From: Thermoplasmata archaeon
GTDB lineage: Archaea; Thermoplasmatota; Thermoplasmata; Lutacidiplasmatales; UBA184
Direction: 5' to 3'
DNA: 64,000 bases
Assembly: GCA_049584655.1 (NCBI GenBank)
Contig: JBAUYF010000007.1
Coordinates: forward strand, 27,288 to 91,287
Both the position numbers and the translations under genes were made by a program. Below the pieces are notes generated by a model. It made no database searches and was not told the origin of the DNA. It was given only the letters and a program-made list of their open reading frames with translations. The stretch's first letter is position 1. Each line of letters starts with the position of its first letter. This document shows positions 35,550 to 62,089 of the stretch, in pieces.

Positions 35550-35559
35550 GGCCTCCGCC

Positions 35560-38920: not shown

Positions 38921-39029
38921 CTTGGTGCCGAGCAGTCCGATGAGGACGAAGGCGAGGGCCGGGAGGAGCGGGACGAGGAAAGCGCCTCCGAATACCCAAT
39001 CGAGCGACCCGTTCGTTGTTCGATCCCTC

Positions 39030-40632: not shown

Positions 40633-41752
40633 TGCTCGGGACGCAACCGAATACGGGTAGGCATTTCACGAGGACTACGACGGCCGCGAGAACGACGCTG
40701 AGGAGGGCCAGTGGGATCATTCGGTTCCACCCCACGCGCAAGAGCTGGTCGGTGCGCACGCGCGGCAACGAGGCCCGGATCCAGACGAAGACGCCAAACA
40801 CGGCGTAGGTTTTGATCATGAACCAGAAGATGCCCGCGAGGGGAAAGTTGGTGAGCGCGCTCGGGACGTACGACGGGAGCGTCCATCCGCCGAGAAACAA
40901 CAGGACGACGAGGATGCTCCCGACGAGGGCGCGGAGGTAATCCGCGAGCATGAAGAACGCGAAGAGCATGCCCCCGTACTCGGTGTTCCAGCCCTCGACA
41001 AGCTCAGCTTCGGCCTCCGGTAGGTCGAAGGGAATGCGTTCCATCTCGGCGAGCATTCCGGCGACGAAGACGATCAGGGCGATGAAGAGGGGTCCCCAGA
41101 ACCAGTAATTCTGTTGTTCGAGCACGATCGTGTTCAGATCGAAGCTCCCGGCAAGCACGATCACGGCGACGACGGCCAGAAGCAGCGGCACCTCGTAGGC
41201 GATCATCTGCGCCGCCGAGCGCATGCCGCCCATGAGCGAGTACTTGTTGTTGCTCGACCACGCACTGATGAAAATGAAGAGGGGAGCGAACGAGAAGATC
41301 GCCAACGCGAGGAGCAAGCTCAGCGGGAGCGCCCCACTGTTCCATCCGGTCGAAATCGGGAGGACGCCAAAGATCACGAGCGACGTGACCATGTAGGCCG
41401 TGGGTCCCGAGAAGAAACCGAGAGCGTCGGCCTCGCGCGGCTTGAACGTCTGCTTATGGAACAACTTGAGCCCGTCCGCAAAATTCTGCAACAGGCCGGC
41501 GTAGCCGACATGCATCGCGCCCCGCCGGTCCATGAAGCGGCCCAAGAGCTTGCGTTCCCACCAGATGAGCAGGATCGTGTTGAGCATGCTGGCGGCGAGC
41601 AGGATCGCGGCAAAGATCAGGACCGCGATCGTGAGAATCAAACCGCTGTTCGTGATCCAGTCGCTGAGTGGGGCCGGGAGCACGGAGCCGAGGGCATGGA
41701 AGAGGGTGTTCGAGAGGAAGAACGCCACCGAAAACAACGAATCAGAGGTCAT
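40622..41752 (-). CDS. nuoH: Complex I-like subunit H
   Basis: 8 TM helices and NuoH/ND1 conserved blocks. Confidence 0.9.
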   Translation of the reverse strand: MTSDSLFSVAFFLSNTLFHALGSVLPAPLSDWITNSGLILTIAVLIFAAILLAASMLNTILLIWWERKLLGRFMDRRGAMHVGYAGLLQNFADGLKLFHKQTFKPREADALGFFSGPTAYMVTSLVIFGVLPISTGWNSGALPLSLLLALAIFSFAPLFIFISAWSSNNKYSLMGGMRSAAQMIAYEVPLLLAVVAVIVLAGSFDLNTIVLEQQNYWFWGPLFIALIVFVAGMLAEMERIPFDLPEAEAELVEGWNTEYGGMLFAFFMLADYLRALVGSILVVLLFLGGWTLPSYVPSALTNFPLAGIFWFMIKTYAVFGVFVWIRASLPRVRTDQLLRVGWNRMIPLALLSVVLAAVVVLVKCLPVFGCVPSIGG

Positions 41753-41768
41753 CGCGCCGGCTCCCTCC

Positions 41769-42914
41769 CTAGCGGTCGGACTCCCCGACGCAGACGTCCA
41801 CGCTGCCCATGATCGGCGGAATGTCCGCGACGCGATAGCCGATCATATACTGCTTGGAGGCGCTCAAGTTCGCAAAGACGGGGGACCGGAATTTCACGCG
41901 ATACGGATGTTCCGCCCCTTCGTTGACCACGTACGCCTGCGCTTCCCCATGCGGCTCTTCGACCGACGAAAAACCGATGCCCTTGGGGTAATTCCTCTTG
42001 AGCAGGTAGCCCTCCTTACCGACGGGGGCGTAGGGGGCACCGAGCCAGCGGGGCAACGGAGACGCCAGTACGGGACCGGGATGTTTCTCGAGCCAAGTTA
42101 GGATCTGGCGAATGATGTTGACGGACTGTCGAAGTTCCTCCATCCGGACAAGGTAGCGGCCCGTCACATCCGCGCTATCGGCCTGGGCGACTTCGAAATT
42201 AACCTGCCCGTAGGCGGAATACGGCCGATCGCGGCGCAGGTCACGGGCGACGCCGGCCGAGCGGAGCATCGGTCCGGTGACTCCGTGCGCGACACAGTCA
42301 TTGGCCTTGAGCACACCGAGACCATCGCACCGCCGGCGAAAGATCGTCGATCCCATGCACAGGCGGTCGTATTCGACGAACCGGTCGTCCAACCAGTCGA
42401 GAACCTTCCGCGCCTGGTCGATGAATCCGTTGGGGAGGTCGTTGCGAACGCCGCCCACGCGCATGTATTCGTAGGTCAATCGACCGCCGGTGTAGCTCTG
42501 GAATAGGTCGAGAACCAAGTCGCGGTCTCGCATCCCATAGAGGAACGGGCTCATCAGCCCCAGGTCCTGCACGAACGCCGCGTACCACATCAGATGCGAC
42601 GCGATGCGTTGGAATTCATCGGACATCGTCCGAATGAACTCGGCCCGTTCCGGCGGATCGATATGGAGCGACTTTTCGGCCGCCAGAATATAGAGATGCT
42701 CCCAGGCCATGCCGGCAACGTAGCAGCAACGGTCCATCAGCGTGATGACCTCGTTATAATGGCGGTCCTCGCTGATCTTTTCGATCCCGCGATGCAAGTA
42801 GCCCATTTCCGGGTCCACGTCGAGAATGATCTCGCCATCGATCTTGACCCGAAGGTTCCAGAGACCATGGGTCATGGGGTGCTGAGGCCCCATATTGATC
42901 CACATTTCAGACAT
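41769..42914 (-). CDS. nuoD: Complex I-like subunit D (NiFe-hydrogenase large-subunit-like)
   Basis: Likely start MSEMWINMGPQHP. Conserved NuoD blocks throughout. Confidence 0.9.
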   Translation of the reverse strand: MSEMWINMGPQHPMTHGLWNLRVKIDGEIILDVDPEMGYLHRGIEKISEDRHYNEVITLMDRCCYVAGMAWEHLYILAAEKSLHIDPPERAEFIRTMSDEFQRIASHLMWYAAFVQDLGLMSPFLYGMRDRDLVLDLFQSYTGGRLTYEYMRVGGVRNDLPNGFIDQARKVLDWLDDRFVEYDRLCMGSTIFRRRCDGLGVLKANDCVAHGVTGPMLRSAGVARDLRRDRPYSAYGQVNFEVAQADSADVTGRYLVRMEELRQSVNIIRQILTWLEKHPGPVLASPLPRWLGAPYAPVGKEGYLLKRNYPKGIGFSSVEEPHGEAQAYVVNEGAEHPYRVKFRSPVFANLSASKQYMIGYRVADIPPIMGSVDVCVGESDR

Positions 42915-43383
42915 GGCGCGTCTTGACCTCCAACTCCTCGGGCTCGTGAAGTTTAAACGACCGAAGCAGCGGATGGAATTGGTATCCATCCGGCATCAGT
43001 AAATGGCGGAGGTCGGGGTGATGGTCGAAGGTGATGTCGACCATTTCCCAGGCCTCCCGCTCATGCCAATTGGCGGACGGCCAGACCGGCGTCGCGCTTT
43101 CGATGTGGGGGTTGTCGGCCGGGAGATCAGAGGAGAGAAGCAGGTATTGCTTTTCCACGTCGGACCACAGAACGTAGAACGCCTCGCGGTGGTCGACCCA
43201 GTCGATTCCACCGACCATCGACAAATGGCGGAAGCCGAGCTGATCGCGTAAGGCGCGGAACACGTCGAGCGCACCTTCCCTGCGAAATCGAACGCGCCCA
43301 ACAAATCCTTCGAACGGCTCGACCCCGAGGAGGCGGTCTCCCACGATGGGAGTCAACCGTCCCGCCACGTCGTCTGGCTGCAT
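42907..43383 (-). CDS. nuoC: Complex I-like subunit C
   Basis: 158 aa. NuoC/30-kDa-subunit fold. Confidence 0.85.
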   Translation of the reverse strand: MQPDDVAGRLTPIVGDRLLGVEPFEGFVGRVRFRREGALDVFRALRDQLGFRHLSMVGGIDWVDHREAFYVLWSDVEKQYLLLSSDLPADNPHIESATPVWPSANWHEREAWEMVDITFDHHPDLRHLLMPDGYQFHPLLRSFKLHEPEELEVKTRHV

Positions 43384-45509: not shown

Positions 45510-46763
45510 CTACCCAGTCGAACCGGAAGTCGGTGGGGGTTTCTTGCGGGGGTCCTGGCTTCCGGGCGCCGGAGAACTTACGATTGGGTTGCGGGTGACG
45601 CCCACCGTTCCTTCCGGCGGGGGCGCGAACTCATCCGGGTTGGGAAGCTGAGGCCCGGGAGATGCCGCTTTGGCCCCGCGTCCGGCCGTTCCGTAGGGGG
45701 ATACGATCGAGGCGGACTCGGCCGACTCGGCTTTGATCTCGTCCTCGATGCTCTTGATCTCGGTGAGCAGTTCCTCTTGCTGCGGGATCGGGCCAAGAAC
45801 GTTGTCCATCGAACCGATCTGCCTCTCCAGGTCCTCGAGGGAGTTCAGCGGCCGATCCGGTACCGTGCGCGAGGTTCCCAGGTACTCGGAGGCGCCTTCC
45901 ATCAAGCGTGAAAACTCGAAGGGGAAGAGAATCTTCGTGGCCTGTCCGTTCCCTACGGCGGTAACGGTGTCCAGCGAAAGCACTGTCAAGGCCTTGGCGT
46001 CCAACGTGCTCGCGCCGAGTGCGAGGATTCGGAGGCGCTGGGCTTCTCCTTGCGCCTGAAGGATCGTGGCAACCCGAGCCCCCTCGGCTTCCAGGATCTG
46101 AGACTGTCGAACTCCTTCGGCTTGCAGGATTCGGGACCGCTTCTGCCCTTCGGACACGAGAATCGCGCTTCGCTTCTCTCCGTCCGCTCGGAGCACGGCG
46201 GCGCGACGTTGACGTTCGGCGGAGGTTTGCTCCTCCATCGCCGTCTTGACCGGTCCAACGGGATCCACTTCCTTGATCTCGACCGCTTCGACGCGAACGC
46301 CCCAGCGGTCCGTGGCTTCATCCAGAATATCGCGGAGTCGGGTGTTGATCCTCTCGCGGTTGTACAGAATCTCGTCCAGTTCCATATCGCCGATGATCGA
46401 CCGCAGCGTCGTTTGGGCGAGGGCTACCGTGGCGACGTGGAAGTCCTGGACCTGGAAGATCGCTTTCGGTGCATCGACGACTTTGATGTAAATGATCGCG
46501 TCGACATTCGTGGGAGAGTTGTCCTTGGTGATGACCTCTTGGCGAGGAACTTCCAGCACCTGCGTACGTAGATCGATCTTGAGTACGACCGACAGCGGAC
46601 TGACGATATTGAACCCCGGGTTGATCATCCGCTTGTACGACCCCAAGAGGGTGACAATCCCCTGCTGGTAGGGGTTGATCGTGTAAATCATCCGGCTCAG
46701 GAGCACGAGGATGACAATCACCACGACGATCGCGATGAAGATGATAGTCGTGTAATCGGCCAC
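45510..46763 (-). CDS. SPFH/band-7 (stomatin-like) membrane protein
   Basis: N-terminal TM helix, an SPFH domain (..QEVITKDNSPTNVDAIIYIKV..) and a coiled-coil region. Has a long Pro-rich C-terminal tail. Confidence 0.85.
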   Translation of the reverse strand: MADYTTIIFIAIVVVIVILVLLSRMIYTINPYQQGIVTLLGSYKRMINPGFNIVSPLSVVLKIDLRTQVLEVPRQEVITKDNSPTNVDAIIYIKVVDAPKAIFQVQDFHVATVALAQTTLRSIIGDMELDEILYNRERINTRLRDILDEATDRWGVRVEAVEIKEVDPVGPVKTAMEEQTSAERQRRAAVLRADGEKRSAILVSEGQKRSRILQAEGVRQSQILEAEGARVATILQAQGEAQRLRILALGASTLDAKALTVLSLDTVTAVGNGQATKILFPFEFSRLMEGASEYLGTSRTVPDRPLNSLEDLERQIGSMDNVLGPIPQQEELLTEIKSIEDEIKAESAESASIVSPYGTAGRGAKAASPGPQLPNPDEFAPPPEGTVGVTRNPIVSSPAPGSQDPRKKPPPTSGSTG

Positions 46764-52479: not shown

Positions 52480-53967
52480 TCACGGTCCCGCAGCGCGCAG
52501 GCGAACGATCTCTGCTTCGACATCGCCGACCGGTTCGTGGGCCGCTCGGAGGTCTTCGAGATTTATTCCCACATTGGCCAGCGCGCCCTCGCTGGTGGCC
52601 CGAAGTAGTGCGAGGGACGTCACGAGGTCGCTTTCCAATGCCGCCTTTACTCGACTCCGCATATTCCCGAGGGTATCGCTGAGGTGACGTGCGAGCCGAG
52701 CCGTCTCGAGCGGAACTTCCGCTGCCTTGCGAAGGCTTACCACCCAAACCTTCTGGACCACGGAGTCGTGCGGGCGTTCTTTGAGGTCCCGTCGCGCCGA
52801 ACGCACGGATTCGTACGCCGCCGAATCTTCCCCGACGAGCTCCAAGAAACGAGCACGGGCGGCTCGGGCGGAGCTCAAGGCCGGTTCGAGCACTGGGTCT
52901 TCTCCGCCTTTGGGGATCGAGTAGGCTAGCGCCATCTCTCCGAGAGCGGCCCCCATCGCCCCGGCCGCCGCCGCCGCACTCCCTCCGCCCGGAGTAGGAG
53001 TACGGGCGGCGATCCGCTCGACGAACTCTCGGAACGGTTCGGCGGCCATGCCGCTGGTTCCGGACGTTCCAACCGAGCGGACTTTCCGTTCTAAAACTGC
53101 GGATCGGTCGAACCGATTGAGCTGGAGATAGTACTCCGCTGCGTCGAACAGAGCGTCTTCGGGGATGAGGCCCACGACTTCGGACTCCTCGATCGTCACG
53201 CCGAAACGTGCGGCTTCTCGTCGCACGAACTCGAGTGCCCGGGGGACGGACGTCCGACGGTAGTCGGTCAGATTCATCGAGACTTGGGCTCGTTGACGTT
53301 CCTTGATCTCGAAGCCGAGTGCTTTGACCTCCACCAACCCGCCGTCACGGGCGCGAATGGCCTTCGCAATCTTCTTGGCGATCGCCACGTCCGGGGTCGA
53401 CAGATAGGCGTTGTAGGCGATCAGTACAGGTCGCGCGCCGATAGCTACCGCACCGGCAGTCGGGTGGATTCGAGGTTCTCCGAAGTCCGGTGTGCGTGCC
53501 GGATCGGATGCGATCGCGTCCCGGATTCCCTCGAATTGACCTTCGCGCACGCGTGCGAGGTCGGCGCGCTCCGGTCGCTGGGCGGCCAATCCGTAGAGGT
53601 AGACCGGTATCTTGAGCTCTCGAGCGACCCGCTCGCTCAATTGGCGCGCGAGCCCCACCGCATCTTCCATCGAGGACTCCCCTAGTGGCACAAAGGGGAC
53701 GACATCCGTTGCGCCCATCCGGGGATGCTCTCCGTGGTGATGCGTAAGATCGATCAGTTCGGTCGCGACGCGCATCATTCGAATGACTGCCTCGACGAGA
53801 TCGTTGCCCTCGCCGGCGAGCGAAATGACGCATCGGTGATGGTCGGCGTTGCTCTCGATGTCGAGGACTGTGACGTGCGGAACCGCGCGGGCGGCATCTG
53901 CGATCCGAGTGATGATCGCGGCATCGCGTCCCTCGGAAAAGTTGGGGACGCACTCGAACATGGTCAT
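52480..53967 (-). CDS. ftcD: Formiminotransferase-cyclodeaminase (glutamate formimidoyltransferase + cyclodeaminase domains)
   Basis: The N-terminal formiminotransferase domain starts MFECVPNFSEGRD. The C-terminal cyclodeaminase domain has GGGSAAAAAGAMGAALGEMA. Confidence 0.85.
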   Translation of the reverse strand: MTMFECVPNFSEGRDAAIITRIADAARAVPHVTVLDIESNADHHRCVISLAGEGNDLVEAVIRMMRVATELIDLTHHHGEHPRMGATDVVPFVPLGESSMEDAVGLARQLSERVARELKIPVYLYGLAAQRPERADLARVREGQFEGIRDAIASDPARTPDFGEPRIHPTAGAVAIGARPVLIAYNAYLSTPDVAIAKKIAKAIRARDGGLVEVKALGFEIKERQRAQVSMNLTDYRRTSVPRALEFVRREAARFGVTIEESEVVGLIPEDALFDAAEYYLQLNRFDRSAVLERKVRSVGTSGTSGMAAEPFREFVERIAARTPTPGGGSAAAAAGAMGAALGEMALAYSIPKGGEDPVLEPALSSARAARARFLELVGEDSAAYESVRSARRDLKERPHDSVVQKVWVVSLRKAAEVPLETARLARHLSDTLGNMRSRVKAALESDLVTSLALLRATSEGALANVGINLEDLRAAHEPVGDVEAEIVRLRAAGP

Positions 53968-54998
53968 GGATCCGGCCCGCCGTACGTTTCAAGCAGCGTT
54001 TGACGCGCGCGCGCGTCCGCCGGCGAACTCGTCACCACCGGCCGTTTCCGAGCTCGTGCCACGGCCGCCTTGACACGATCCGGAGAAAATCCGTGTCCCT
54101 CCACGAGAATCCGCTCTACCGCGGCCTCGTCCACCGGTCCAAAATAAGGCGCGGCGGTTGCCTCCACTGCGGGATGGCGGAACAGTTCCGCAACGGGCTC
54201 CACCTCTTTGGGATCGAGGCCGGCCTTCATCAGCGTTGCCTCCCAGCCCAGATGTTCTTGCACCAACTTCAGCGCCCGTTTCGGCCCTATCCCTTTGGCT
54301 CCGTCGTTGAAATCCGTTCCCACGAGAATCCCGATCAGAATTAGCTCATCTCCGCTCACTCCAAGCTGACTCAGCAAGTCGTCCCGGTTCACGAGCTGGG
54401 CGCCCGGGCTCTGACCGGCCCGCCCCCGCGCAGCGAGGCCCCGCACGAGCCGAGGAGCGCCAAAGAGGAGCGAATCATAATCTTCGGAGGCGGCTGCCCA
54501 AACGGATCCGCGCGCTGCCATTGTCGCCGCCTGGGCTTCGCCTTCCGACGGCGCTTGCACGGAAGGTACTCCCAACGCAGTCAGCAACTCCCGAACTTCC
54601 TCGACCATGGATCGCGTGAGCCGGGAAGTCTGCGCGGCCTTCTTGCGCGCAGTTTCGAGATCCCCGGCGGCGAGTGCTTCACTCCACTGCGCCTCGGCGC
54701 GCTCTTTGGCGAGTATCCTCGACCGGATCGTTCCGGCCTTAAGATCCGGCGGGCGACCGTCGAAGACCCATACCGGAAGGACGCCTTGGCTCAGGAGCGA
54801 TGAGGTGCGATAGAAAACCCCAATCAGATGGCTGGTGGGGTGGCCCTCCGGATCCGTGAACGGCATCCCATCGCGCTGGCGAATCGTCGCGAGGAATTGG
54901 TAAATGGCGTTGTAGCCGTCGACAGCCAAGGAGCGCCCGGAGAGGGCGTCCCAAGGAAGCTCCTGCGGGCTGACCAACTCCCGAAACGGAAGGCCCAC
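53964..54998 (-). CDS. fen: Flap endonuclease 1
   Basis: XPG-N and XPG-I domains (AVDGYNAIYQFL.., DYDSLLFGAP, GTDFNDGAKGIGPKRA H3TH). The likely GTG start is internal to the supplied ORF. Confidence 0.85.
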   Translation of the reverse strand: MGLPFRELVSPQELPWDALSGRSLAVDGYNAIYQFLATIRQRDGMPFTDPEGHPTSHLIGVFYRTSSLLSQGVLPVWVFDGRPPDLKAGTIRSRILAKERAEAQWSEALAAGDLETARKKAAQTSRLTRSMVEEVRELLTALGVPSVQAPSEGEAQAATMAARGSVWAAASEDYDSLLFGAPRLVRGLAARGRAGQSPGAQLVNRDDLLSQLGVSGDELILIGILVGTDFNDGAKGIGPKRALKLVQEHLGWEATLMKAGLDPKEVEPVAELFRHPAVEATAAPYFGPVDEAAVERILVEGHGFSPDRVKAAVARARKRPVVTSSPADARARQTLLETYGGPDP

Positions 54999-55116
54999 GA
55001 TCGAAGCGAAGCGGCGCGGAGTACTTGTGGTTGCCGTCGGAAAGTTTTGGTGGCGGTGCTGGAACGTGCGCGAAGGGTGAAGTACCGGAGGCCGTACTGC
55101 CGGCGCGAGGAAGGCG

Positions 55117-55902
55117 ATGGAGATCAAGTGGCAGGATGAGGCAGGATCCTCCGGGCTCGAACCAGGCGCCGTCATTGTGTCGAGCTTCCCGAGCGCGGGA
55201 CTCGCCGCGACCGTTGCGGCGCATTACATGGTCCAAGCCCTCAAACTCCCCCGCATCGGAATCTTCGACGGGCCGGACATGGCGCCCATCGCCGTCGTAC
55301 AGGACGGCGTGGTGAATCCTCCGATCCGAGTCTACGGGCAGAAGGATTTTGCCGCGATCCTCTCGGAGTTTCCTCCGACTCCCGCCTTGGCGTCCGCGCT
55401 GGCGACGACGATCTTGAACGGCGCAATCCAGCGCAAGGCGCGGATGATTGTGTGTTTTGAGGGGGTGGTCCCGCACCCGTTGGAGGAGGGTCAGGATCCG
55501 GCCGCGGAGGCCCCCGATGAAAAGGTCTGGGTTGCTTTTGCCCGCAAGGACCCGGCTATCACCAAGACGTTCGAGCCCACCCAGGCAGGACTGCTGGAGG
55601 ATGGGGTACTCGGCGGAGTCTCCGGAGCGCTGCTCGTCCAGGGTATCAACCGCTCGATTCCCGTCGCCGTGTTACTCGTCAGCGCACGGGCGGTCGAAGG
55701 GCTTCCCGATCATCGGGCGGGCGCGGCGTTGATCGAAACGTTCGATCGGTTGCTCCCGGAGCTCAAGATCGATACGGGGCCTCTAAGAGTCGAAGCGGAG
55801 CGCATCGAACGAGCGCTACGCGCCGCGATGAAAACGCACGGAAAATCGGAAGCGGCGGGAAAGGCTATCGTCGAGCCGGCAAGCGCGGACATGTACCGGT
55901 AA
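55117..55902 (+). CDS. PAC2-family proteasome assembly chaperone
   Basis: 261 aa. N-terminal segment VIVSSFPSAGLAATVAAHYMVQAL is consistent with archaeal PAC2/PbaA-B proteins; assignment is tentative. Confidence 0.75.
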   Translation: MEIKWQDEAGSSGLEPGAVIVSSFPSAGLAATVAAHYMVQALKLPRIGIFDGPDMAPIAVVQDGVVNPPIRVYGQKDFAAILSEFPPTPALASALATTILNGAIQRKARMIVCFEGVVPHPLEEGQDPAAEAPDEKVWVAFARKDPAITKTFEPTQAGLLEDGVLGGVSGALLVQGINRSIPVAVLLVSARAVEGLPDHRAGAALIETFDRLLPELKIDTGPLRVEAERIERALRAAMKTHGKSEAAGKAIVEPASADMYR

Positions 55903-55928: not shown

Positions 55929-56094
55929 CTAATAGGCGTCGGTATAGGTCAACAGGTAGAGGACGCCCCCGACCATCACGGTGAGGAGGATCAGGATCGA
56001 GATCGGATTGGAGGAAAAGACCGCGACCGTCAACCCGATCAACACAGCGGGGAGGAGGATCGCCAGGAGGAATGTCCAGAGCTTTCCGTCCATC
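55929..56094 (-). CDS. Tiny 2-TM membrane protein (54 aa), possibly co-transcribed with the FtsZ-like gene
   Basis: Sequence MDGKLWTFLLAILLPAVLIGLTVAVFSSNPISILILLTVMVGGVLYLLTYTDAY. It lies 86 nt downstream of the FtsZ-like gene on the same strand. Not in the ORF track because it is under 60 aa. Confidence 0.35.
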
Positions 56095-56180
56095 GCAACC
56101 GCGAGGAGCCCGAGCTCCTCTTAACGATTCTAGCTCGAGGCGAGAGCGCCCCGACCGTCGATGACTCGGTTACCCACTCC

Positions 56181-57104
56181 TCAGTGGAGCGCCTCGGGGG
56201 GACGCGGAGGAGATTCGATCTCGAACGTCAACTCGGCCTCGTGGAACGACGGGCTGGCGGCAGGGGTAGGGGCGTAGGGGCCTAGTCGGGCGGGGCTCTC
56301 GGGCGGAAGCGAAACTTCGATCGTCAGGGGAGCCGACTCGGGGGGCTCGTTCATCGCCCGCCGCGCTCCGAGGGGCCGGGCCGCGGCCGCCGCTACGAGT
56401 GCTTCTGTGGGAATGAGATAGGCTTTCTCGATGTGACTCGCGATCGTTTCCGCCCAGTGTTGGTCCAGCTGGTTGAAAGGAAGCTTGCGCTGCCGCGCCG
56501 CCAGGTACTCGTTGTCGAGGACCTGGAGATTCGCACACCCACGTTGTTGCTTCGCGACGAACTCCTCCACGAAATGCAGGCGCGCCAGCCCACGATCCGC
56601 AACGGACCGGCGGTCCCCTTCCGCGAGGAAGGGCTTGATCACAAAGGCGGAGAGGATTTCGCACTGCCGTGCGGCGGCGCCAAGTACGTAAGGGAACGCT
56701 CCCGTTCCACTGCCGCCCCCCAGACTGCCGACGACGGTGACGAATGTGGCGCCCTCAAAGATTCGGTCCAGCGCCGGCTGCGCGGCGTGCGCCAGCATAC
56801 CGCCGACCACCGTGGAGCCACCGGTATCGGTCTCGACACCCGAATCGGGACCCAAGTAAACGCGTCGATCGAACTCCTCGAAACCCTGGACGCGGGGATC
56901 GCAGTTGATGGCTACGGTCTCGAGATAGCGAAGATGTCGGCGGGCGATGGCCCGGCCGACTTGGATAGCTCCGCCGCCGACAGCGGCCAAAACGAAACGG
57001 ACGTCGTGACCGAGCCGCAAGTCCTCCAACCCTTCGACCGCCGGGTCGGACGGCTCTTCCAGGTTGATCTCTCGGTTGGGTCCATCTCGTGCGGCCTCGT
57101 ACAT
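56181..57104 (-). CDS. FtsZ/tubulin-superfamily GTPase consisting only of the N-terminal GTP-binding domain plus a Pro-rich C-terminal tail (FtsZ-like-1-type architecture)
   Basis: T1 AAVGGGAIQVG, VAINCD, tubulin signature GGGSGTG (T4), T5 IKPFLAEG and H6 LQVLDNEYL all align to FtsZ. The sequence ends after H7. There is no T7 NxDxxD synergy loop and no C-terminal domain. The tail ends ..EAELTFEIESPPRPPEALH. A GGGGAG ribosome-binding site lies 7 nt upstream of the ATG (MYEAARD); the supplied ORF is over-extended to 57449. Confidence 0.75.
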   Translation of the reverse strand: MYEAARDGPNREINLEEPSDPAVEGLEDLRLGHDVRFVLAAVGGGAIQVGRAIARRHLRYLETVAINCDPRVQGFEEFDRRVYLGPDSGVETDTGGSTVVGGMLAHAAQPALDRIFEGATFVTVVGSLGGGSGTGAFPYVLGAAARQCEILSAFVIKPFLAEGDRRSVADRGLARLHFVEEFVAKQQRGCANLQVLDNEYLAARQRKLPFNQLDQHWAETIASHIEKAYLIPTEALVAAAAARPLGARRAMNEPPESAPLTIEVSLPPESPARLGPYAPTPAASPSFHEAELTFEIESPPRPPEALH

Positions 57105-57141
57105 TGCAACTCCCCTGCGTCGTGTCTTCCCTTGCCGCTCC

Positions 57142-57669
57142 CTATCGACCGACGACCCCCTTTCGCTCCAAATCGCGGGCACTCTCTTGGAGGGCACCGA
57201 CTTGAGCCCGCTGTTCGGCGGCTTGCTGGACCGACGTGCGCGCGCGTTGGACGAGTTCGACGACCTTGAGTTCGAGCTCGGCTCGACGCACGAACTCGGC
57301 GAGGACATCGCCGATCGGGCGGTCGTTTCCGACAAGTCGAGCGTAGGCGCCCAGGGTTTCGATCTCATCGCTTCGCAGTCGAACGGGAACTTCGACGATT
57401 CCCGTAGGGTCCAAGCGGGCCGGGGGTGTGGCCGACAGCGCCCGAGCACGCAAGAAGCTGCGCAGCGCCTCTCGCATCAACTCCGAGCGGCTGGCAAACT
57501 CTCCGTTCGAGACGAACGAATCCAGCAGCTGGAGCTCTTTGCGGTTGCACCGTAGGGCGATGCGCTCATCCTCGCGACCCGCCAGGCGGTCTGCCGATTC
57601 TTTCGAACCTTCAGATGCCTTGTTGGGAGCGTTGTCGAACACGACTGGGCGCTGGTATGCAGAATGCAA
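57142..57669 (-). CDS. Ribbon-helix-helix (CopG/Arc/MetJ-type) DNA-binding protein with possible second RHH-like repeat and coiled-coil C-terminus
   Basis: Beta-strand RIALRCN followed by helices KELQLLDSFVSNGEFASRSELMREALRSFL. A second similar unit is VPVRLRSDEIETLGAYARLVG. The C-terminus (ELVQRARTSVQQAAEQRAQVGALQESARDLER) is predicted helical. It lies 37 nt upstream of the FtsZ-like gene. The start codon is uncertain (TTG at 57669 or GTG ~57642). Confidence 0.6.
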   Translation of the reverse strand: MHSAYQRPVVFDNAPNKASEGSKESADRLAGREDERIALRCNRKELQLLDSFVSNGEFASRSELMREALRSFLRARALSATPPARLDPTGIVEVPVRLRSDEIETLGAYARLVGNDRPIGDVLAEFVRRAELELKVVELVQRARTSVQQAAEQRAQVGALQESARDLERKGVVGR

Positions 57670-57671
57670 CT

Positions 57672-57679
57672 ATTTAAAG
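57672..57679 (-). promoter_or_regulatory. Archaeal TATA-box-like element (TTTAAATA on minus strand) upstream of RHH-FtsZ-like operon
   Basis: Matches the TTTAWATA consensus. It sits in a locally AT-rich 220-bp intergenic region. Confidence 0.3.
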
Positions 57680-57887
57680 AGATGCCATGGGCTGCGCCGA
57701 GCATTGCACCGGTACGTCCTAGCAGGAGTTCTATGACGTGTCGAACAAATTTTGATAGGCCGGAACTAGCGTCGATCGTGAAAATCTCACTGTATAACCG
57801 CTCCAAATTTTCGCAAAAAAAACACGCGCGAAGGTGCGACGTTGGAACGAACTACATTCAATCGCGCGCAGGATCGCGGTCGACTCT

Positions 57888-58739
57888 CTAATCGACTCCC
57901 GCGATGCCGTAGATCTGGATCGCGGCGAGAATGGTCGACGGGTATCCTTCGTAGGTCAGGTAGATCTCACACGCCCCCGGCACCACGAAGCACCAACCAG
58001 GAGCGCCGTGGAAGTCGTCCCCGTCGACGCAGGGGTTGCCGGAGTAACCCGGGGCGCAGTCCCCGCTGTAGTCGAGCGGGGTTCCCGGGGTGTGCGTGTA
58101 CAGGATGAACGTATCCCCATTGTTGACCACGCCGGAATAGTTCAGGAGCGGTACGAAAATCCCGAGCCGATTGTACAGTGTGCTATAGGACCCCGAGGGG
58201 ATGAACGTCCCGCACTCCCCGAGGTGGGGCGCGTTAGGGGCGGGTCCCGTGGAACTTCCCGGGAACCAGGTCATGGCCGCCAATGATCCTTGTACCAAGT
58301 AGGTCGTGTAGTTCTGCCCCAGAGCATTGGTCGCTCGGCAGACGAACGAGAACTGGATCTCATCCAGCGAGATATCATCGGGTGTGTGTTGGGTAAAAAC
58401 GATCTGCGTGGAATTCATCTGGGAGTAATTCCCGGTCGCCGTAGTATCACACTGATACGTGATCGCGTTTCCCAACGTCCAGGTGTGCGGGAGCACGTTG
58501 TTGACCCAGGGAAAGTGATACGAATCGAATGTACAGTCGGTCGGATCTCCCCAGACGGGATTCGAAGTGCCCGATCGAACCAGGTAGGAAAGCGTGGGAG
58601 CGGGAGTGGGAAGGTTGAGGTGGAACTCCCACAAGATCGAGCCGACGGCCACCGTCAGGCCGACCAGGAGGACCATCGAAATGATGGTGCTCACGGCCCG
58701 CAACGGCCCAACGCGCCGACGGGACCACTTTCGGACCAT
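57888..58739 (-). CDS. Archaeal type-IV-pilin-like secreted protein (class III signal peptide), N-glycosylation-sequon rich
   Basis: N-terminus MVRKWSRRRVGPLRA|VSTIISMVLLVGLTVAV fits the [KR]G/A-[VA][ST]..I..VLL class III signal. It has at least 5 N-x-S/T sequons and several Cys. Confidence 0.65.
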   Translation of the reverse strand: MVRKWSRRRVGPLRAVSTIISMVLLVGLTVAVGSILWEFHLNLPTPAPTLSYLVRSGTSNPVWGDPTDCTFDSYHFPWVNNVLPHTWTLGNAITYQCDTTATGNYSQMNSTQIVFTQHTPDDISLDEIQFSFVCRATNALGQNYTTYLVQGSLAAMTWFPGSSTGPAPNAPHLGECGTFIPSGSYSTLYNRLGIFVPLLNYSGVVNNGDTFILYTHTPGTPLDYSGDCAPGYSGNPCVDGDDFHGAPGWCFVVPGACEIYLTYEGYPSTILAAIQIYGIAGVD

Positions 58740-59029: not shown

Positions 59030-59623
59030 ATGCACGTATTTGGACGGAAAGCGAGAAGTTGGAGAAAGGGGCGCAAGCGGGGAGTATCCCCGATCATCGC
59101 TACGATTTTGCTCGTGGCGATTACCGTGGTACTGGCTGCCGTGCTCTATATCCTCATCTCGGGATTGACGAAGGGACCCGGCAACACGCCGCTTAGCACG
59201 GCGTTTGGATTCGGAACAGCGACCCAAGTGAACCCGACAGCCACTACGGCTGGCGAGTGCACAGCAGCTCACTTCTGCTATGAGATCGCGATTAGCGAAG
59301 CGAGCGGCGGGCTCACGGCGAACGATATCCAGCTGAAGCTGACCACGAATACGGGCACGATCATTGCGGTGAACGACTTCTATGTCGATGCCGCGAACTT
59401 GGCCGTGAACGGTTATCTCGCGTCCGCCGTCAACCCCTCCGGGGCATGGGCGTCGACCGCGGGAACGGGTGGAGCAGCCGTCGAAATTACGGGCACGACC
59501 GTCATGACCGGCGCGATGGTCATGTGGATCGATATTACCGCGTCCGTATACGGCACCGGCGCCATCTTGACCGCGTTCGGACAGGGGTCGTTCTCGTCTT
59601 CGGTCTCGACCACCCTCCCGTAA
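59030..59623 (+). CDS. Archaeal type IV pilin (class III signal peptide)
   Basis: N-terminus MHVFGRKARSWRKGRKRG|VSPIIATILLVAITVVLAAVLY is a textbook archaeal prepilin signal. The rest is Thr/Ala/Gly-rich. Confidence 0.75.
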   Translation: MHVFGRKARSWRKGRKRGVSPIIATILLVAITVVLAAVLYILISGLTKGPGNTPLSTAFGFGTATQVNPTATTAGECTAAHFCYEIAISEASGGLTANDIQLKLTTNTGTIIAVNDFYVDAANLAVNGYLASAVNPSGAWASTAGTGGAAVEITGTTVMTGAMVMWIDITASVYGTGAILTAFGQGSFSSSVSTTLP

Positions 59624-59753: not shown

Positions 59754-60980
59754 ATGATTTACCGAGAGGTCGTTGTGAGAAGGGCCAGTCGACGTGTTGC
59801 GCTTCGAACTCAGAATTTCCGACGCTCTCGGCGGTCCTTCCGCCGGAACGGCCGCGGGGTATCGGAGGTCGTCGCGACGATCCTGCTGCTCGGTCTCACC
59901 GTAACGTTGTTCTCCTCTATCTTTTTCTTCGTCAACACGTTTCCCCGACCTCCTTCCCAATCTGCCAGCCAGTTCCAGGGGTCGCTGCTCTTTACGCCGA
60001 ACGGTGGCTACATCACGAACGTCCTGATCTTGCACCTCTCCGGTCAAGTGCTGAGCTCGCCCGTGACGACGATCTACATGCGATCCTCGGCGAACCCGGG
60101 CTTCTACAGCGCCCAATACACGGTCGCGCAGGGGCTCAATGGCTCCAACTACTGGGCGCTCGGTCAGACCTGGAACATCTCGCTCACCTCCACGGGACCG
60201 CAGCCCGGGCCCTCTCCCAACGGCGACCCCGTCCCGGACAACATGACCGTCTACATCCTGTCGGGAACGCAGTTGATTTTCACTGTCACGCTCCCCGGTC
60301 AAGTGCCGGCGCTGGCCCCTTACTTTACGAATTTCGGAACCAAGCCGTCTCCCCCCGTGGTGGCGCAGGCCTTCAATATAACGATCTTCGTCTCAAGCAC
60401 CGATCTGAACACGCACTCGGTCTACGTGAACATCTCGCAGCTTCCGGGAGTGTCGGGCGCCTTGCTAAACGCCCAGAAGATGACGAAGGGCAGCTTACCG
60501 GGGGAATACTACTACAACGTCCCCGCCGGGGTGACTTCGAATACGGGGACCTACTACGTGGTGTTCAACGCTACCGATGCCATGACAGGCCTTCGGGGGG
60601 CGCAGGGCTTCGCCTTGACGATCCAGACGCCCAGCAGCCCATCCACGCTGCTCACCGTGGGGGCCGTCAACTTGACGGCTGTCTATCACGGAGGCACGAA
60701 ACCGGCGTACTTCTCCGCGATAGTTTCGGACCTGGCCGTCTCCGGGGGTACGGCGAACGTCACGGTTTGGTTCAACATCACGATCAACGGAGGCGCGTCC
60801 ACTACGATCGGCACGGCCGTCACCGGAACGGTGGGCCCGGGCGGGACCATCACCTTGAATTCCGCAGCGTTCAAGACGGCCGCGACGAGCGCCGCGGGTC
60901 AGAAATGGGTCCTGCTGGTCACGGCGACCGCAACCAGCTTGGGGACCGCCACGGGAACGATCTCGGGCGTCCTCAGTTAG
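59754..60980 (+). CDS. Large type-IV-pilin-like protein with extremely Arg-rich leader and ~10 N-glycosylation sequons
   Basis: ..RRNGRG|VSEVVATILLLGLTVTLFSSIFFFV class III signal after a ~35-aa leader containing 11 Arg. Sequons include NGS, NIS, NMT, NFT, NIT, NAT, NLT and NVT. A TATA-like CTAAATAG lies ~15 nt upstream of the ATG, so the true start may be downstream. Confidence 0.65.
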   Translation: MIYREVVVRRASRRVALRTQNFRRSRRSFRRNGRGVSEVVATILLLGLTVTLFSSIFFFVNTFPRPPSQSASQFQGSLLFTPNGGYITNVLILHLSGQVLSSPVTTIYMRSSANPGFYSAQYTVAQGLNGSNYWALGQTWNISLTSTGPQPGPSPNGDPVPDNMTVYILSGTQLIFTVTLPGQVPALAPYFTNFGTKPSPPVVAQAFNITIFVSSTDLNTHSVYVNISQLPGVSGALLNAQKMTKGSLPGEYYYNVPAGVTSNTGTYYVVFNATDAMTGLRGAQGFALTIQTPSSPSTLLTVGAVNLTAVYHGGTKPAYFSAIVSDLAVSGGTANVTVWFNITINGGASTTIGTAVTGTVGPGGTITLNSAAFKTAATSAAGQKWVLLVTATATSLGTATGTISGVLS

Positions 60981-62089
60981 CCCTGCGGACCCTTGTTTGC
61001 GGAGCGTAGCGGAGCTGACTCCGCACTATTCGGAAGCGAAACTCCGCACTTCCAGCATGACGTCTCGTTCGGATAGACGACGGCTTGGCAGTTTGGACAA
61101 CGGCGCTCGTCGACCGTCGAAGCGATGCTGGACCCCGCCGCGGTCCCCGGCGGCGCTGCGAGATTAGTCGGGCCCGATCCAGGATTCGCCGGCGGGGCCT
61201 GGGCGTTTGATTCCGCTCGGGCCGCTTCTTCCTTCCGGTTCGCTTCTCGCCGCTTGAACCAGATGTAGACGACCAGCGCGAAGAAGAAGACCCCGCCCAC
61301 GTAGAGGAAGACCTCGACGTAGAGACCCAGAATGACGCCCTCGAGGGTGGTGAAAAAGTCGCCCGTTACGGGACCCTCGATCCCTCCGCTGTAGCCGTTA
61401 TTCTCGTTCAGGAAGATCCAGTAGTTCGGCGTGGACTTGTTGGTGGACGCGTTGATGTTCCGGACCGCCAACCCCATCTGGAACCACCAGACGTTATTCC
61501 CGTTGAGCGCCAGGGGGATTTCGACCAGAGTCGTCCCGTTCGTATTCGGGGGGAACGTGTAATTGCCTACCACCAACGGGTAGGGGGTTCCGCAATTGGA
61601 CGAAGGGGGAGGAGAGGAGCCCGTGGCGCCCGGACAAGTGCTAACCCAGACGTTCAGCCATTGAGGGGTCCCATTTCCCGGGGGGATGTACTGGGGGTAG
61701 ACGGAGACGCTGAAATTGTAGGTCCCCCCGCTGTTGCCGAGGAAAGGTGATACCTGGGCATTCTGGAGCACGGAATTGCCGTTGCCGTTCGGCAAACTGG
61801 GATCCGAGCTACCCGGAGACGACGGAGTTCGCAATTCCTGCGCGTAAAAAACGGTGAAAGCGGGAGTTGCGATCAGGAGGGCGACGATCCCCAAGGTCGC
61901 GAGGTACCGGGGTCGCTTCATTCCGCCCAAGATGGGGACCGCGAGGCCGAAGATCAGGAACGCGGGGATCGCGATGAGAACGCCTAGGTAGGCGAGTGAC
62001 GCAAATAGGACGAGCGTGGCGAGGGCAATGAGAGCGATTCTTCCCCACCGAGTTGCGACGAAAGCCCTAAAGCCGCCCTTCCGCTCCAC
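60977..62089 (-). CDS. Membrane glycoprotein-like protein with C-terminal cytoplasmic zinc ribbon
   Basis: Two N-terminal TM helices, an extracellular Ser/Pro/Asn-rich domain with many N-x-S/T sequons, a third TM helix, then CPNC..x11..CWKC. Convergent 4-nt overlap with 59754..60980. Confidence 0.55.
   Translation of the reverse strand: MERKGGFRAFVATRWGRIALIALATLVLFASLAYLGVLIAIPAFLIFGLAVPILGGMKRPRYLATLGIVALLIATPAFTVFYAQELRTPSSPGSSDPSLPNGNGNSVLQNAQVSPFLGNSGGTYNFSVSVYPQYIPPGNGTPQWLNVWVSTCPGATGSSPPPSSNCGTPYPLVVGNYTFPPNTNGTTLVEIPLALNGNNVWWFQMGLAVRNINASTNKSTPNYWIFLNENNGYSGGIEGPVTGDFFTTLEGVILGLYVEVFLYVGGVFFFALVVYIWFKRREANRKEEAARAESNAQAPPANPGSGPTNLAAPPGTAAGSSIASTVDERRCPNCQAVVYPNETSCWKCGVSLPNSAESAPLRSANKGPQG

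What the first reader, a model, noticed from the sequence alone, without database searches (positions are those of the whole stretch)
55929..57680. RHH DNA-binding protein + FtsZ/tubulin GTPase lacking the C-terminal domain and T7 loop + tiny 2-TM protein: candidate cytomotive/segregation or membrane-remodelling cassette
The GTPase (56181..57104) aligns block-for-block with the FtsZ N-terminal domain (T1 GGGxxxxG, VAINCD, T4 GGGSGTG, T5 PFxxEG, H6 VLDNEYL). It stops after H7, so the T7 NxDxxD catalytic loop and the whole C-terminal domain are absent, replaced by a Pro-rich disordered tail ending in a hydrophobic/acidic peptide (EAELTFEIESPP). This matches the domain architecture reported for the FtsZ-like-1 family (N-domain only). 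The partners differ from what I recall for that family: a ribbon-helix-helix protein 37 nt upstream, apparently with two RHH-like units plus a coiled coil, and a 54-aa 2-TM protein 86 nt downstream. An RHH centromere-binding adaptor plus a tubulin-like GTPase is the logic of TubR-TubZ type III partition systems. Alternatively the RHH could recruit the GTPase to DNA or act as its transcriptional autoregulator. The cassette is preceded by an AT-rich region with a TATA box and sits beside a pilin/surface-protein cluster.
Basis: partly seen in the sequence, partly recalled or inferred. Interest (0 to 1): 0.8.

Follow-up and report, generated by a model that had tools for sequence, protein, structure and literature searches.

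The report
Half-FtsZ operon in soil Thermoplasmata
A group of uncultured soil and peat archaea carries a conserved three-gene set: a DNA-binding regulator, a cell-division-type GTPase (FtsZ) that has only its front half plus a short conserved tail peptide, and a tiny membrane protein. This is an undescribed branch of the FtsZ family whose function is not yet known.

Summary
On the minus strand lie three genes:
- an RHH gene, 57142-57642, most likely 166 aa;
- a 307-aa FtsZ-superfamily protein, 56181-57104;
- a 54-aa two-helix membrane protein, 55929-56093.

The GTPase has the FtsZ N-domain with loops T1-T6 and helix H7. After that come only a variable Pro-rich linker and a conserved E[AV]ELTFE[VI] peptide. 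It has no T7 motif and no C-terminal domain, and this is not a frameshift.

The trio recurs in 104 species-level Thermoplasmata genomes. It also recurs in divergent relatives (37-42% identity) that sit in a different gene neighbourhood. None was found on plasmids or in viral contigs.

The TubZRC partition reading is not supported.

The closest precedent is the archaeal cdrS-ftsZ2 operon, because the RHH domain consistently matches the CdrS model, though weakly. A 9-bp near-palindrome, TGTYCGACA, brackets the TATA box. One copy overlaps the start codon and another lies 105-106 bp upstream. This motif travels with the cassette, which points to autoregulation.

Most likely this is a self-regulated, chromosomal FtsZ paralogue that modulates division or the membrane. 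It is a new variant of a known kind, and its biochemical role is unproven.

The parts
57739..57747 (-). Distal copy of the candidate operator TGTTCGACA (extended form TGTTCGACACGTCA, 57734-57747), 106 bp upstream of the proximal copy
   Evidence: This 9-mer has only two copies in the 64-kb window. The distal copy is conserved in 75 of 76 unique related promoters. Spacing is 105-106 bp in 67 of 76, and 22 of 76 have a third copy 21 bp further upstream.
57671..57678 (-). TATA box TTTAAATA of the RHH-GTPase operon, starting 36 nt before the GTG start codon (near-leaderless mRNA)
   Evidence: Read from the sequence. A TATA box (TTTAAGTA in most relatives) starts at -36 in 70 of 76 unique related promoters.
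57633..57641 (-). Proximal operator copy TGTTCGACA, overlapping the start codon (GTG TTC GAC AAC = M-F-D-N) and the predicted transcription start
   Evidence: The conserved MFDN is followed by a variable N-terminal segment of the protein. This suggests the constraint acts on the DNA rather than on the protein.
57142..57642 (-). RHH DNA-binding protein (166 aa; the mechanical ORF runs up to TTG 57669). It has one N-terminal ribbon-helix-helix of the CdrS type, a middle segment, a 50-residue C-terminal helix and an invariant end DLER[KR]GVVGR.
   Evidence: Pfam RHH_1 E 9e-4; NCBIfam CdrS E 5e-5. All 8 of 8 diverse homologues hit the CdrS model. 405 homologue clusters, mostly 166 aa. AlphaFold model. 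Local Foldseek matches to ParD/NikR RHH domains, not significant.
56379..57017 (-). FtsZ-type GTP-binding N-terminal domain plus core helix H7 (residues 30-242 of the 307-aa protein encoded at 56181-57104)
56241..56378 (-). Variable Pro-rich disordered linker (residues 243-288)
   Evidence: pLDDT mostly at or below 50, none above about 66. Columns are not conserved in alignments A1 and A4.
56217..56240 (-). Conserved C-terminal peptide EAELTFEI (residues 289-296). Acidic and hydrophobic residues alternate, as in an amphipathic beta-strand.
   Evidence: E291, L292, T293, F294 and E295 are invariant in alignment A1. E[AV]ELTFE[VI] is present in most of the 89 sequences. The pattern resembles the C-terminal peptide of archaeal FtsZ, but lacks its GID motif.
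56118..56125 (-). TATA-like box (GTTAAGAG), starting about 32 nt upstream of the membrane-protein ATG; probably that gene's own leaderless promoter
   Evidence: An element of the form YTTAAG / CTTTATGAG lies at the same distance in nearly all related loci. In some lineages opposite-strand genes are inserted between the GTPase and this gene.
55929..56093 (-). 54-aa membrane microprotein: two hydrophobic helices joined by a conserved FSSNP turn, ending in YLL[TS]Y
   Evidence: Alignments A3 and A6. 289 homologue clusters of 54-56 aa, all in the same archaeal group. It always lies just downstream of the GTPase, even where the wider gene context differs.

Best explanation
This is a chromosomal, vertically inherited module specific to a group of uncultured Thermoplasmata, including UBA184 / Ca. 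Lutacidiplasmatales. It is related in design to the archaeal cdrS-ftsZ2 operon.

1. The CdrS-like RHH protein binds the 9-bp near-palindrome TGTYCGACA. One copy overlaps the transcription and translation start. Another lies ten helical turns upstream, with an optional third copy two turns further. Through these sites it autoregulates a bicistronic RHH-GTPase mRNA. The long C-terminal helix could link DNA-bound dimers and so loop the DNA.

2. The GTPase is a 'half FtsZ'. It keeps a complete nucleotide pocket (T1-T6, H7), so it should bind GTP. It lacks the T7 loop and the C-terminal domain, which form the other face of an FtsZ protofilament and complete the active site of the neighbouring subunit. 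It is therefore unlikely to build canonical head-to-tail filaments or to hydrolyse GTP on its own. The most plausible role is that of a nucleotide-dependent modulator of FtsZ-type assemblies or of the membrane, for example an end-binder that offers its GTP face to the T7 face of a full-length FtsZ.

3. Like FtsZ, it carries a disordered linker and a conserved C-terminal peptide that should dock onto a partner by beta-strand addition. Candidate partners are SepF, the neighbouring 2-TM microprotein, or the RHH protein.

4. The microprotein has its own promoter and is the likeliest membrane receptor or co-factor.

Shown: the fold, the motifs, the truncation, co-conservation of the three genes, and the conserved promoter and operator layout. 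Inferred: DNA binding to that motif, GTP binding, lack of self-polymerisation, the partner of the tail, and the cellular process.
For: - Fold and motifs.
- The truncation is genuine and conserved.
- The family is a tight, isolated clade. Only 15 of 1.84 billion cluster representatives score below E 1e-30. Scores then drop sharply to canonical FtsZ at about 1e-12.
- The trio is present in all 80 GTDB loci whose contig reaches far enough. It is also present in divergent members that sit in a different context, NDK-Sua5-MetAP upstream and RNA polymerase or CysRS downstream.
- The RHH and GTPase genes overlap or abut in those lineages. In the window a GGGGAG Shine-Dalgarno-like site precedes the GTPase ATG.
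- Operator: the only two copies in the window are at this promoter. Layout and spacing are conserved in 76 unique promoters. Distant lineages have TGTCCGACA or TGTCGGACA in two copies downstream of their TATA box.
- The RHH domain is CdrS-like in 8 of 8 diverse members. CdrS-ftsZ2 co-transcription and its wide synteny are published, and CdrS is a sequence-specific regulator.
- The tail peptide is conserved and resembles the extended, SepF-binding C-terminal peptide of archaeal FtsZ.
- Chromosomal core context; absent from viral and plasmid collections.
Against: - There is no experimental or expression evidence.
- I could not establish whether the same genomes encode full-length FtsZ1, FtsZ2 or SepF, so the 'modulator of canonical FtsZ' step is untested.
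- The CdrS match is far below the model's cut-off (23 bits against 100), and RHH domains cross-match easily.
- The tail has TFE where archaeal FtsZ has the nearly invariant GID.
- In some lineages the T3 and T4 loops have decayed (GGRSGTG, GGEAGTE, GGETGSS). Nucleotide binding may therefore not be essential to the function.
- An invariant P-x-E (P232, E234) near the end of H7 could be a minimal substitute for T7. In that case self-assembly would not be excluded.
- The membrane protein's cytoplasmic ends are only about 4-7 residues, a small surface for docking a peptide.
Confidence: 0.5

Rival explanations
1. The locus is the lineage's own cdrS-ftsZ2 locus. The half-FtsZ is the orthologue of FtsZ2 and has lost its C-terminal domain. 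It still acts as a core division protein alongside FtsZ1, rather than as an extra paralogue.
For: A CdrS-like RHH lies directly upstream in an operon, the same layout as cdrS-ftsZ2. The tail follows the archaeal C-terminal-peptide pattern. The gene is single-copy, in the core genome and vertically inherited.
Against: The N-domain shows no particular affinity to any canonical FtsZ group. The nearest representatives are a mix of bacterial and Altiarchaeum FtsZ at about 1e-12. Losing the T7 face is hard to reconcile with a role in ring constriction. Other Thermoplasmata lineages listed by Pende et al. usually have two FtsZ genes plus SepF, but this group was not in their table. I built no phylogeny.
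Confidence: 0.15
2. A chromosomal DNA-segregation system of the TubZRC kind. The RHH protein bound to its repeats acts as a centromere complex, and the GTPase tail captures it.
For: There is a DNA-binding adaptor, a tubulin-superfamily GTPase with a conserved C-terminal tail, and repeated DNA sites. In several known partition systems the centromere-binding protein also represses its own operon (my own knowledge).
Against: There are only 2-3 sites, placed exactly around the TATA box and the start site, which is operator geometry. The cassette is never found on plasmids or viral contigs. The GTPase lacks the T7 loop and C-terminal domain needed for treadmilling filaments. TubR is a winged-HTH protein, not an RHH (my own knowledge). 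There is no detectable similarity to TubZ, and PhuZ scores only E about 0.9.
Confidence: 0.07
3. A toxin-antitoxin-like or conditional division-inhibitor pair. The half-FtsZ poisons FtsZ polymerisation, and the RHH protein both represses the operon and neutralises the inhibitor through its C-terminal region.
For: The RHH gene comes first, genes are adjacent or overlapping, and a palindromic operator sits at the promoter, as in type II TA modules. There are weak ParD-type matches: 3 of 8 members to TIGR02606, plus local Foldseek matches. An isolated N-domain could cap filaments (inference).
Against: The locus is stable, single-copy and syntenic in over 100 species, with no sign of mobility. No known toxin fold is present. 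PADLOC and PHROGs give nothing for the GTPase. A conserved third gene and an FtsZ-like linker plus peptide are not features of TA modules.
Confidence: 0.1
4. A GTP-independent scaffold or decaying relic. The fold is kept for a structural role unrelated to nucleotide switching or to FtsZ.
For: The T3 and T4 loops have degenerated in some lineages, while the cassette and tail persist there.
Against: In the main clade every nucleotide-contact loop is nearly invariant across 89 sequences. Mean column identity is high (67-72%) across the main clade despite roughly 55-60% pairwise identity to the window protein.
Confidence: 0.05

Closest known systems
Archaeal cdrS-ftsZ2 operon (Halobacterium / Haloferax; Darnell et al. 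2020, PMC7439475; Liao et al. 2021, PMC8406309)
   Same: A small RHH regulator is encoded immediately upstream of, and co-transcribed with, an FtsZ-family gene. The RHH domain of this family matches the CdrS model in all 8 diverse members tested. CdrS binds a symmetric DNA motif.
   Different: CdrS is about 60 aa, whereas this protein is 151-168 aa in relatives (166 aa here), with an added middle segment, a long helix and a conserved end. FtsZ2 is full-length (GTPase domain plus C-terminal domain), whereas this protein stops after H7. There is a third conserved gene, the 2-TM microprotein. The CdrS match is far below the family cut-off. The operator here overlaps the protein's own promoter, which implies autoregulation; this is not what is described for CdrS.
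Canonical FtsZ (bacterial FtsZ; archaeal FtsZ1 and FtsZ2)
   Same: N-terminal GTPase domain with loops T1-T6 and helix H7, 20-26% identity, rmsd about 2.9 A over about 200 columns. The overall plan is the same: folded part, then disordered linker, then conserved C-terminal peptide.
   Different: No T7 NxDxxD motif, no H8 onward and no FtsZ_C domain. TIGR00065 scores 59.9 bits against a cut-off of 295. The tail reads ELTFE rather than the archaeal GID or the bacterial D-I-P-x-F-L motif.
FtsZl1 / 'FtsZ-like' (Pfam Tubulin_2) family of Makarova & Koonin 2010
   Same: A divergent member of the FtsZ superfamily without a recognisable FtsZ C-terminal domain.
   Different: FtsZl1 proteins are about 1000 aa, with a long coiled coil and an alpha-helical C-domain. 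Their alignment to FtsZ is reliable only as far as H5. They sit with vWA, GTPase and OmpA genes and carry Tubulin_2. This protein is 307 aa, hits PF00091, aligns through H6 and H7, and has different neighbours.
TubZRC type III plasmid/phage partition systems
   Same: A tubulin-superfamily GTPase with a functional C-terminal tail, encoded next to a DNA-binding protein that recognises repeats.
   Different: TubZ has both domains and treadmills. TubR is a winged-HTH protein, and tubC is an array of iterons on a mobile replicon (my own knowledge). Here there is an RHH protein, 2-3 operator sites, a chromosomal core locus and no TubZ similarity.
Separately expressed FtsZ N-terminal domain (Oliva, Cordell & Lowe 2004; recalled from memory, not read here)
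   Same: It shows that the N-domain is an independently folding, nucleotide-binding unit whose GTPase activity needs the T7 loop supplied from the other part of the protein.
   Different: That was an engineered fragment. This is a natural, conserved gene with its own linker, peptide and partner genes.

Membership tests
FtsZ/tubulin superfamily (PF00091 GTPase domain) | Rossmann-type N-domain with the tubulin signature loop GGGTG[ST]G and loops T1-T6 | tested here: met
   PF00091 scores 40.8 bits against a gathering cut-off of 33. GGGSGTG is at residues 129-135. All loops are conserved in 89 relatives. AlphaFold model plus Foldseek give FtsZ at E 2e-11.
Canonical FtsZ (TIGR00065 equivalog) | Full-length match including the T7 synergy loop NxDxxD and the C-terminal (FtsZ_C) domain | tested here: not met
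   59.9 bits against a cut-off of 295, with only residues 42-177 matched. No FtsZ_C hit. The model ends in H7 followed by disorder. No C-terminal domain in any reading frame.
Canonical archaeal FtsZ | C-terminal SepF-binding peptide centred on a nearly invariant GID motif (Pende et al. 2021) | tested here: not met
   The tail is E[AV]ELTFE[VI], with TFE in place of GID. The pattern of alternating hydrophobic and acidic residues at the end of a disordered linker is similar. SepF binding itself cannot be tested with these tools.
FtsZl1 (Makarova & Koonin 2010) | About 1000 aa: N-terminal FtsZ-like domain, extended coiled coil and alpha-helical C-domain; Pfam Tubulin_2; neighbours vWA, GTPase and OmpA | tested here: not met
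   The protein is 307 aa. There is no Tubulin_2 hit at E up to 1. The neighbours are an RHH protein and a 2-TM microprotein. Family definition taken.
CetZ / TubZ / PhuZ / tubulin | Best sequence or structure match to these families, including their C-terminal domains | tested here: not met
   The PDB sequence search lists only FtsZ down to 1.7e-5. PhuZ scores E about 0.9, and there are no CetZ, TubZ or tubulin hits. The top 50 Foldseek hits are all FtsZ.
cdrS-ftsZ2 operon | CdrS-family RHH protein (NF058555, cut-off 100 bits) | tested here: inconclusive
   It is the best and only consistent NCBIfam hit for 8 of 8 diverse members. Scores are only about 23 bits, E 4e-5 to 1e-2.
cdrS-ftsZ2 operon | RHH gene immediately upstream of, and co-transcribed with, an FtsZ-family gene | tested here: met
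   The gap is 37 nt here, with a Shine-Dalgarno-like site. The genes overlap or abut in L086, L092 and L097. One promoter lies upstream of the RHH gene. Transcripts were not observed.
cdrS-ftsZ2 operon | The downstream gene is a full-length FtsZ2 | tested here: not met
   It is truncated after H7. Orthology to FtsZ2 was not tested by phylogeny.
TubZRC type III partition | Located on a plasmid or phage; iteron array (tubC); TubR winged-HTH adaptor | tested here: not met
   Chromosomal core context. No relatives in IMG/VR or PLSDB. There are 2-3 sites at the promoter. The adaptor is an RHH protein.
Type II toxin-antitoxin (ParD/CopG antitoxin) | RHH antitoxin paired with a known toxin fold; patchy, mobile distribution | tested here: not met
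   The partner is always the FtsZ-like gene. The locus is syntenic and vertically inherited in 104 species. Only weak ParD matches.

The most novel reading that the evidence does not exclude
The half-FtsZ is not just a modulator. It is a minimal cytomotive protein that assembles without a C-terminal domain. The invariant P-x-E at the end of H7 would act as a stripped-down T7, or the C-terminal beta-peptide would insert into the next subunit. The resulting polymer would be tethered to the membrane by the 2-TM microprotein and dosed by its own RHH repressor. That would be a new kind of tubulin-superfamily polymer, and a natural demonstration that the N-domain alone can carry out FtsZ function.
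Probability: 0.12. Interest if true: 0.85.

Novelty: new variant of a known kind. Interest (0 to 1): 0.6.

Why it matters
All well-studied members of the FtsZ/tubulin superfamily polymerise through two faces, and one of them is built from the T7 loop and the C-terminal domain. This is a naturally occurring N-domain-only FtsZ, conserved in over 100 species. It keeps a full GTP pocket, an FtsZ-style linker and docking peptide, a dedicated regulator and a dedicated membrane microprotein.

It offers a direct test of what the GTP-binding half can do alone: capping, switching, or a new mode of assembly. It also bears on how archaeal division is regulated outside the halophile models.

The promoter with its defined 9-bp palindrome gives an immediately testable regulator-operator pair, and extends the cdrS-ftsZ theme to another archaeal class. 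The host group, including Ca. Lutacidiplasmatales, is recovered widely from soil and peat metagenomes but is uncultured. Heterologous work would therefore be needed.

Tried and rejected
- Frameshift or split gene: rejected. Length is conserved and there is no FtsZ_C domain in any frame.
- FtsZl1 membership: rejected.
- Internal duplication of the RHH unit: hhalign of the two halves gives 0.7% probability. The AlphaFold monomer does not show a second RHH or any pairing within the chain (pTM 0.38, so weak evidence).
- Foldseek of the RHH model: nothing significant, only local matches to ParD and NikR RHH domains.
- Mobile-element origin: no relatives in IMG/VR or PLSDB. PHROGs gives nothing for the GTPase or the microprotein, and only a weak 'transcriptional repressor' hit for the RHH protein. 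PADLOC gives nothing.
- Regulon search: a scan of metagenome contigs for paired operator copies returned mostly unrelated DNA. Only 2 of 120 hits were cassette promoters, so it was uninformative.
- Finding the donor lineage: the nearest canonical FtsZ representatives are a mix of Altiarchaeum tandem FtsZ and unnamed or bacterial-type tails. There is no clear affinity. One archaeal-type hit (P0184) lies beside cdc6, with no RHH gene adjacent.
- Whether the same genomes have FtsZ1, FtsZ2 or SepF: not resolved. Two papers on the host group mention no division genes, and the table in Pende et al. does not include this group.
- The AFDB fold library was not available.
- One literature search was wasted on over-broad terms. 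Two further searches for a prior description of such a truncated archaeal FtsZ found none. This is absence from the held library only.


Full report
**What is there.** Three genes lie head to tail on the minus strand.
- An RHH protein. The mechanical ORF is 57142-57669. The real start is most likely GTG 57642, giving 166 aa.
- A 307-aa FtsZ-superfamily protein at 56181-57104.
- A 54-aa membrane protein at 55929-56093.

The gaps between them are 37 nt and 87 nt. The window is 62% GC and is a piece of archaeal chromosome. It carries a complex I operon, topoisomerase VI B, succinyl-CoA synthetase, RIO1 kinase, FEN1 and archaeal pilins. The closest public relative of the GTPase (96% identity) is from a Thermoplasmata MAG.

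**The GTPase.**
- It passes Pfam's Tubulin gathering score (40.8 bits against 33).
- It is far below the FtsZ equivalog cut-off (59.9 bits against 295).
- It matches solved FtsZ structures only over residues 40-177.
- A profile of the family aligns to an archaeal-type FtsZ with 98.3% probability over residues 25-212.

The AlphaFold model, built from 65 homologues, is confident (pLDDT above 90) from residue 30 to 240. It shows the full FtsZ N-domain (S1-S6, H1-H6) and a long H7 (210-242), then nothing ordered. The best 50 Foldseek matches are all FtsZ, at about 200 columns, 20-26% identity and about 2.9 A.

Across 89 non-identical relatives the nucleotide-contact loops are nearly invariant:
- T1: VGGG[AG]
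- T2: INCD
- T3: DTGGS
- T4: GGG[AST]G[ST]G
- T5: PFxxEGxRR
- T6: LDNE

There is no NxDxxD motif. Canonical FtsZ queries find no C-terminal domain in any frame of 97 related loci or of the window. Family length is fixed at 302-321 aa. The truncation is therefore real.

After H7 comes a variable Pro-rich linker and then a conserved peptide, E[AV]ELTFE[VI]. Its residues alternate between acidic and hydrophobic, as in an amphipathic beta-strand. An invariant P232-x-E234 sits near the end of H7 in every member, including the most divergent. Its role is unknown.

**How isolated the family is.** An exhaustive HMMER pass over 1.84 billion cluster representatives found only 15 with E below 1e-30. The full-length ones are 302-321 aa and 41-53% identical to the query over the matched stretches (37-49% in alignment A4). 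After them, scores fall sharply to ordinary FtsZ at about 1e-12. The nearest canonical hits are a mixture (Altiarchaeum, bacterial-type tails), so no donor group stands out. In GTDB, 104 species-level genomes carry a relative. Nearly all are labelled Thermoplasmata, among them UBA184 and Ca. Lutacidiplasmatales.

**The cassette is real.** In the 80 GTDB loci kept, the RHH gene, the GTPase and the microprotein gene are together wherever the contig reaches far enough. That alone is weak evidence, because the whole neighbourhood (PAC2, FEN1, FTCD) is syntenic too.

The decisive cases are divergent members at 37-42% identity.
- L086, L092 and L097 lie in a different context. NDK, Sua5 and methionine aminopeptidase are upstream, and RNA polymerase genes or CysRS are downstream.
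- They still have a 151-160-aa RHH gene that overlaps or abuts the GTPase gene, and a 56-aa membrane gene after it.
- These genes are homologous to the window's (alignments A5 and A6).

The three families have similar numbers of sequence clusters (457, 405 and 289). In some lineages other genes have been inserted on the opposite strand between the GTPase and the microprotein gene. One is an unknown gene of about 190-218 aa, and in L095 and L096 it is a PIN-MazE pair. The microprotein gene stays in place. Nearly all loci have a TATA-like box about 25-32 nt before its ATG, so it probably has its own leaderless promoter.

**The regulator and its operator.** The RHH protein has one N-terminal ribbon-helix-helix.
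- Pfam RHH_1 gives E 9e-4, just below the cut-off. Several homologues carry a precomputed PF01402 hit.
- Its best NCBIfam match is the haloarchaeal cell-division regulator CdrS. All 8 diverse members tested hit that model, and one also hits aCcr1.
- The scores are far below the family cut-off, so this is a resemblance and not membership.
- The suggested second RHH unit is not supported.
- The model predicts a 50-residue C-terminal helix. The protein ends in an invariant DLER[KR]GVVGR.

Upstream, the 9-mer TGTTCGACA occurs exactly twice in the 64-kb window. One copy is on the start codon (GTG TTC GAC AAC). The other is 106 bp upstream. The TATA box lies between them, starting at -36.

In 76 unique related promoters:
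- the TATA box starts at -36 in 70;
- the distal copy lies 105-106 bp from the proximal one in 67, which is ten helical turns;
- 22 have a third copy 21 bp further upstream.

Divergent lineages carry TGTCCGACA or TGTCGGACA, a perfect 9-bp palindrome, in two copies about 24 bp apart downstream of their TATA box. One lineage has TGTTCGACA at +1 and +24.

A short palindrome that keeps its position at the promoter while the RHH protein diverges to 30% identity is what an autoregulatory operator would look like. The proximal copy would block initiation. The in-phase distal copies and the long helix suggest looping between bound dimers. This is inference from comparing promoters across genomes; binding has not been shown.

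**Comparison with known systems.**
- *cdrS-ftsZ2.* This is the closest precedent. An RHH gene is co-transcribed with an FtsZ gene, the arrangement is conserved widely in archaea, and CdrS binds a symmetric motif. Here the regulator is longer, the FtsZ is halved and a third gene is added.
Those proteins are about 1000 aa with a coiled coil and a helical C-domain, carry Tubulin_2 and have other neighbours.
- *TubZRC.* This is not supported. The locus is in the chromosomal core, it is absent from IMG/VR and PLSDB, the sites have operator geometry, and there is no similarity to TubZ.
- *The tail.* It resembles the C-terminal peptide of archaeal FtsZ, which binds SepF in an extended, sheet-extending conformation. 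It has TFE where those peptides have a nearly invariant GID.

**Most likely mechanism (confidence about 0.5).** This is an autoregulated operon for an accessory FtsZ paralogue.
- The protein should bind GTP.
- It lacks the protofilament face that carries T7, so it should neither polymerise in the canonical way nor hydrolyse GTP alone.
- It could offer its GTP face to a full-length FtsZ and act as an end-binder or modulator.
- Its tail would tie it to a partner: SepF, the microprotein or the RHH protein.

The weakest links are these. I could not check whether the same genomes encode full-length FtsZ and SepF. The T3 and T4 loops have decayed in a few lineages. The invariant P-x-E leaves room for a non-canonical mode of assembly.

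**Rivals.** Four were considered: orthologous replacement of FtsZ2 (0.15), a TA-like inhibitor pair (0.10), TubZRC-like segregation (0.07), and a GTP-independent scaffold (0.05).

**Novelty and score.** I found no description of this family in the held literature. It is a new, narrowly distributed variant within the FtsZ superfamily, with a new three-gene context and a defined candidate operator. It is not a new kind of system. Interest is 0.6: a specialist would find a conserved natural half-FtsZ with its own regulator and membrane partner surprising and easy to test, but its function is still inferred.

Noticed in passing
window 57888-58739 (-), 59030-59623 (+), 59754-60980 (+), 60977-62089 (-): Cluster of archaeal type IV pilin-like genes. 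Pilin_N hits were found for two of them. Next to them is a 370-aa membrane protein with a C-terminal CxxC...CxxC zinc-ribbon-like end and no Pfam hit. The cluster lies beside the cassette only in the main clade, not in the divergent lineages L086, L092 and L097.
   Followed up: partly
L070 5376-5939 (-), L084 8863-9519 (-); also L072, L079, L081: In one subclade an opposite-strand gene of about 190-218 aa, of unknown function, is inserted between the GTPase and the microprotein gene. In the same subclade the T3 loop of the GTPase has degenerated (LGIPTS instead of DTGGS).
   Followed up: partly
L095 9036-9702 (-), L096 3859-4525 (-): A PIN-MazE toxin-antitoxin pair is inserted between the GTPase and the microprotein gene. 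The GTPase there (314 aa) no longer scores as Pfam Tubulin, yet the trio persists.
   Followed up: no
window 56103-56120: A perfect 7-bp inverted repeat, GAGGAGC-n4-GCTCCTC, lies just upstream of the microprotein ATG and overlaps its TATA-like box. Other loci have G+C-rich inverted repeats further upstream in the same intergenic region. These could be terminators of the RHH-GTPase transcript or translational elements.
   Followed up: partly
P0124, P0130, P0134 (L089-L091): Divergent family members have degenerate signature loops (GGRSGTG, GGEAGTE, GGETGSS) and have lost T3, while the linker, tail peptide and both partner genes are retained. This suggests nucleotide binding is dispensable in some lineages.
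   Followed up: partly
window 53964-55175 (-) and 55117-55902 (+): The mechanical FEN1 ORF (403 aa) is 35-70 aa longer than the called homologues (335-369 aa), and its 5' end overlaps the divergent PAC2-family gene. The true FEN1 start is probably downstream.
   Followed up: no
window 33951-42989 (-), 28377-30392 (-), 45510-46763 (-): Housekeeping context: a complex I (nuo-type) operon, topoisomerase VI subunit B and an SPFH/Band 7 protein. This confirms a chromosomal rather than a mobile setting.
   Followed up: yes
whole window: The GTPase, the RHH protein and the microprotein each have no identical copy in the 5.8-billion-protein collection. The best matches are 96%, 93% and 93% identical. 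The source appears to be a close relative of MAG MFD06594_ilm_asm_bin23, not that MAG itself.
   Followed up: no
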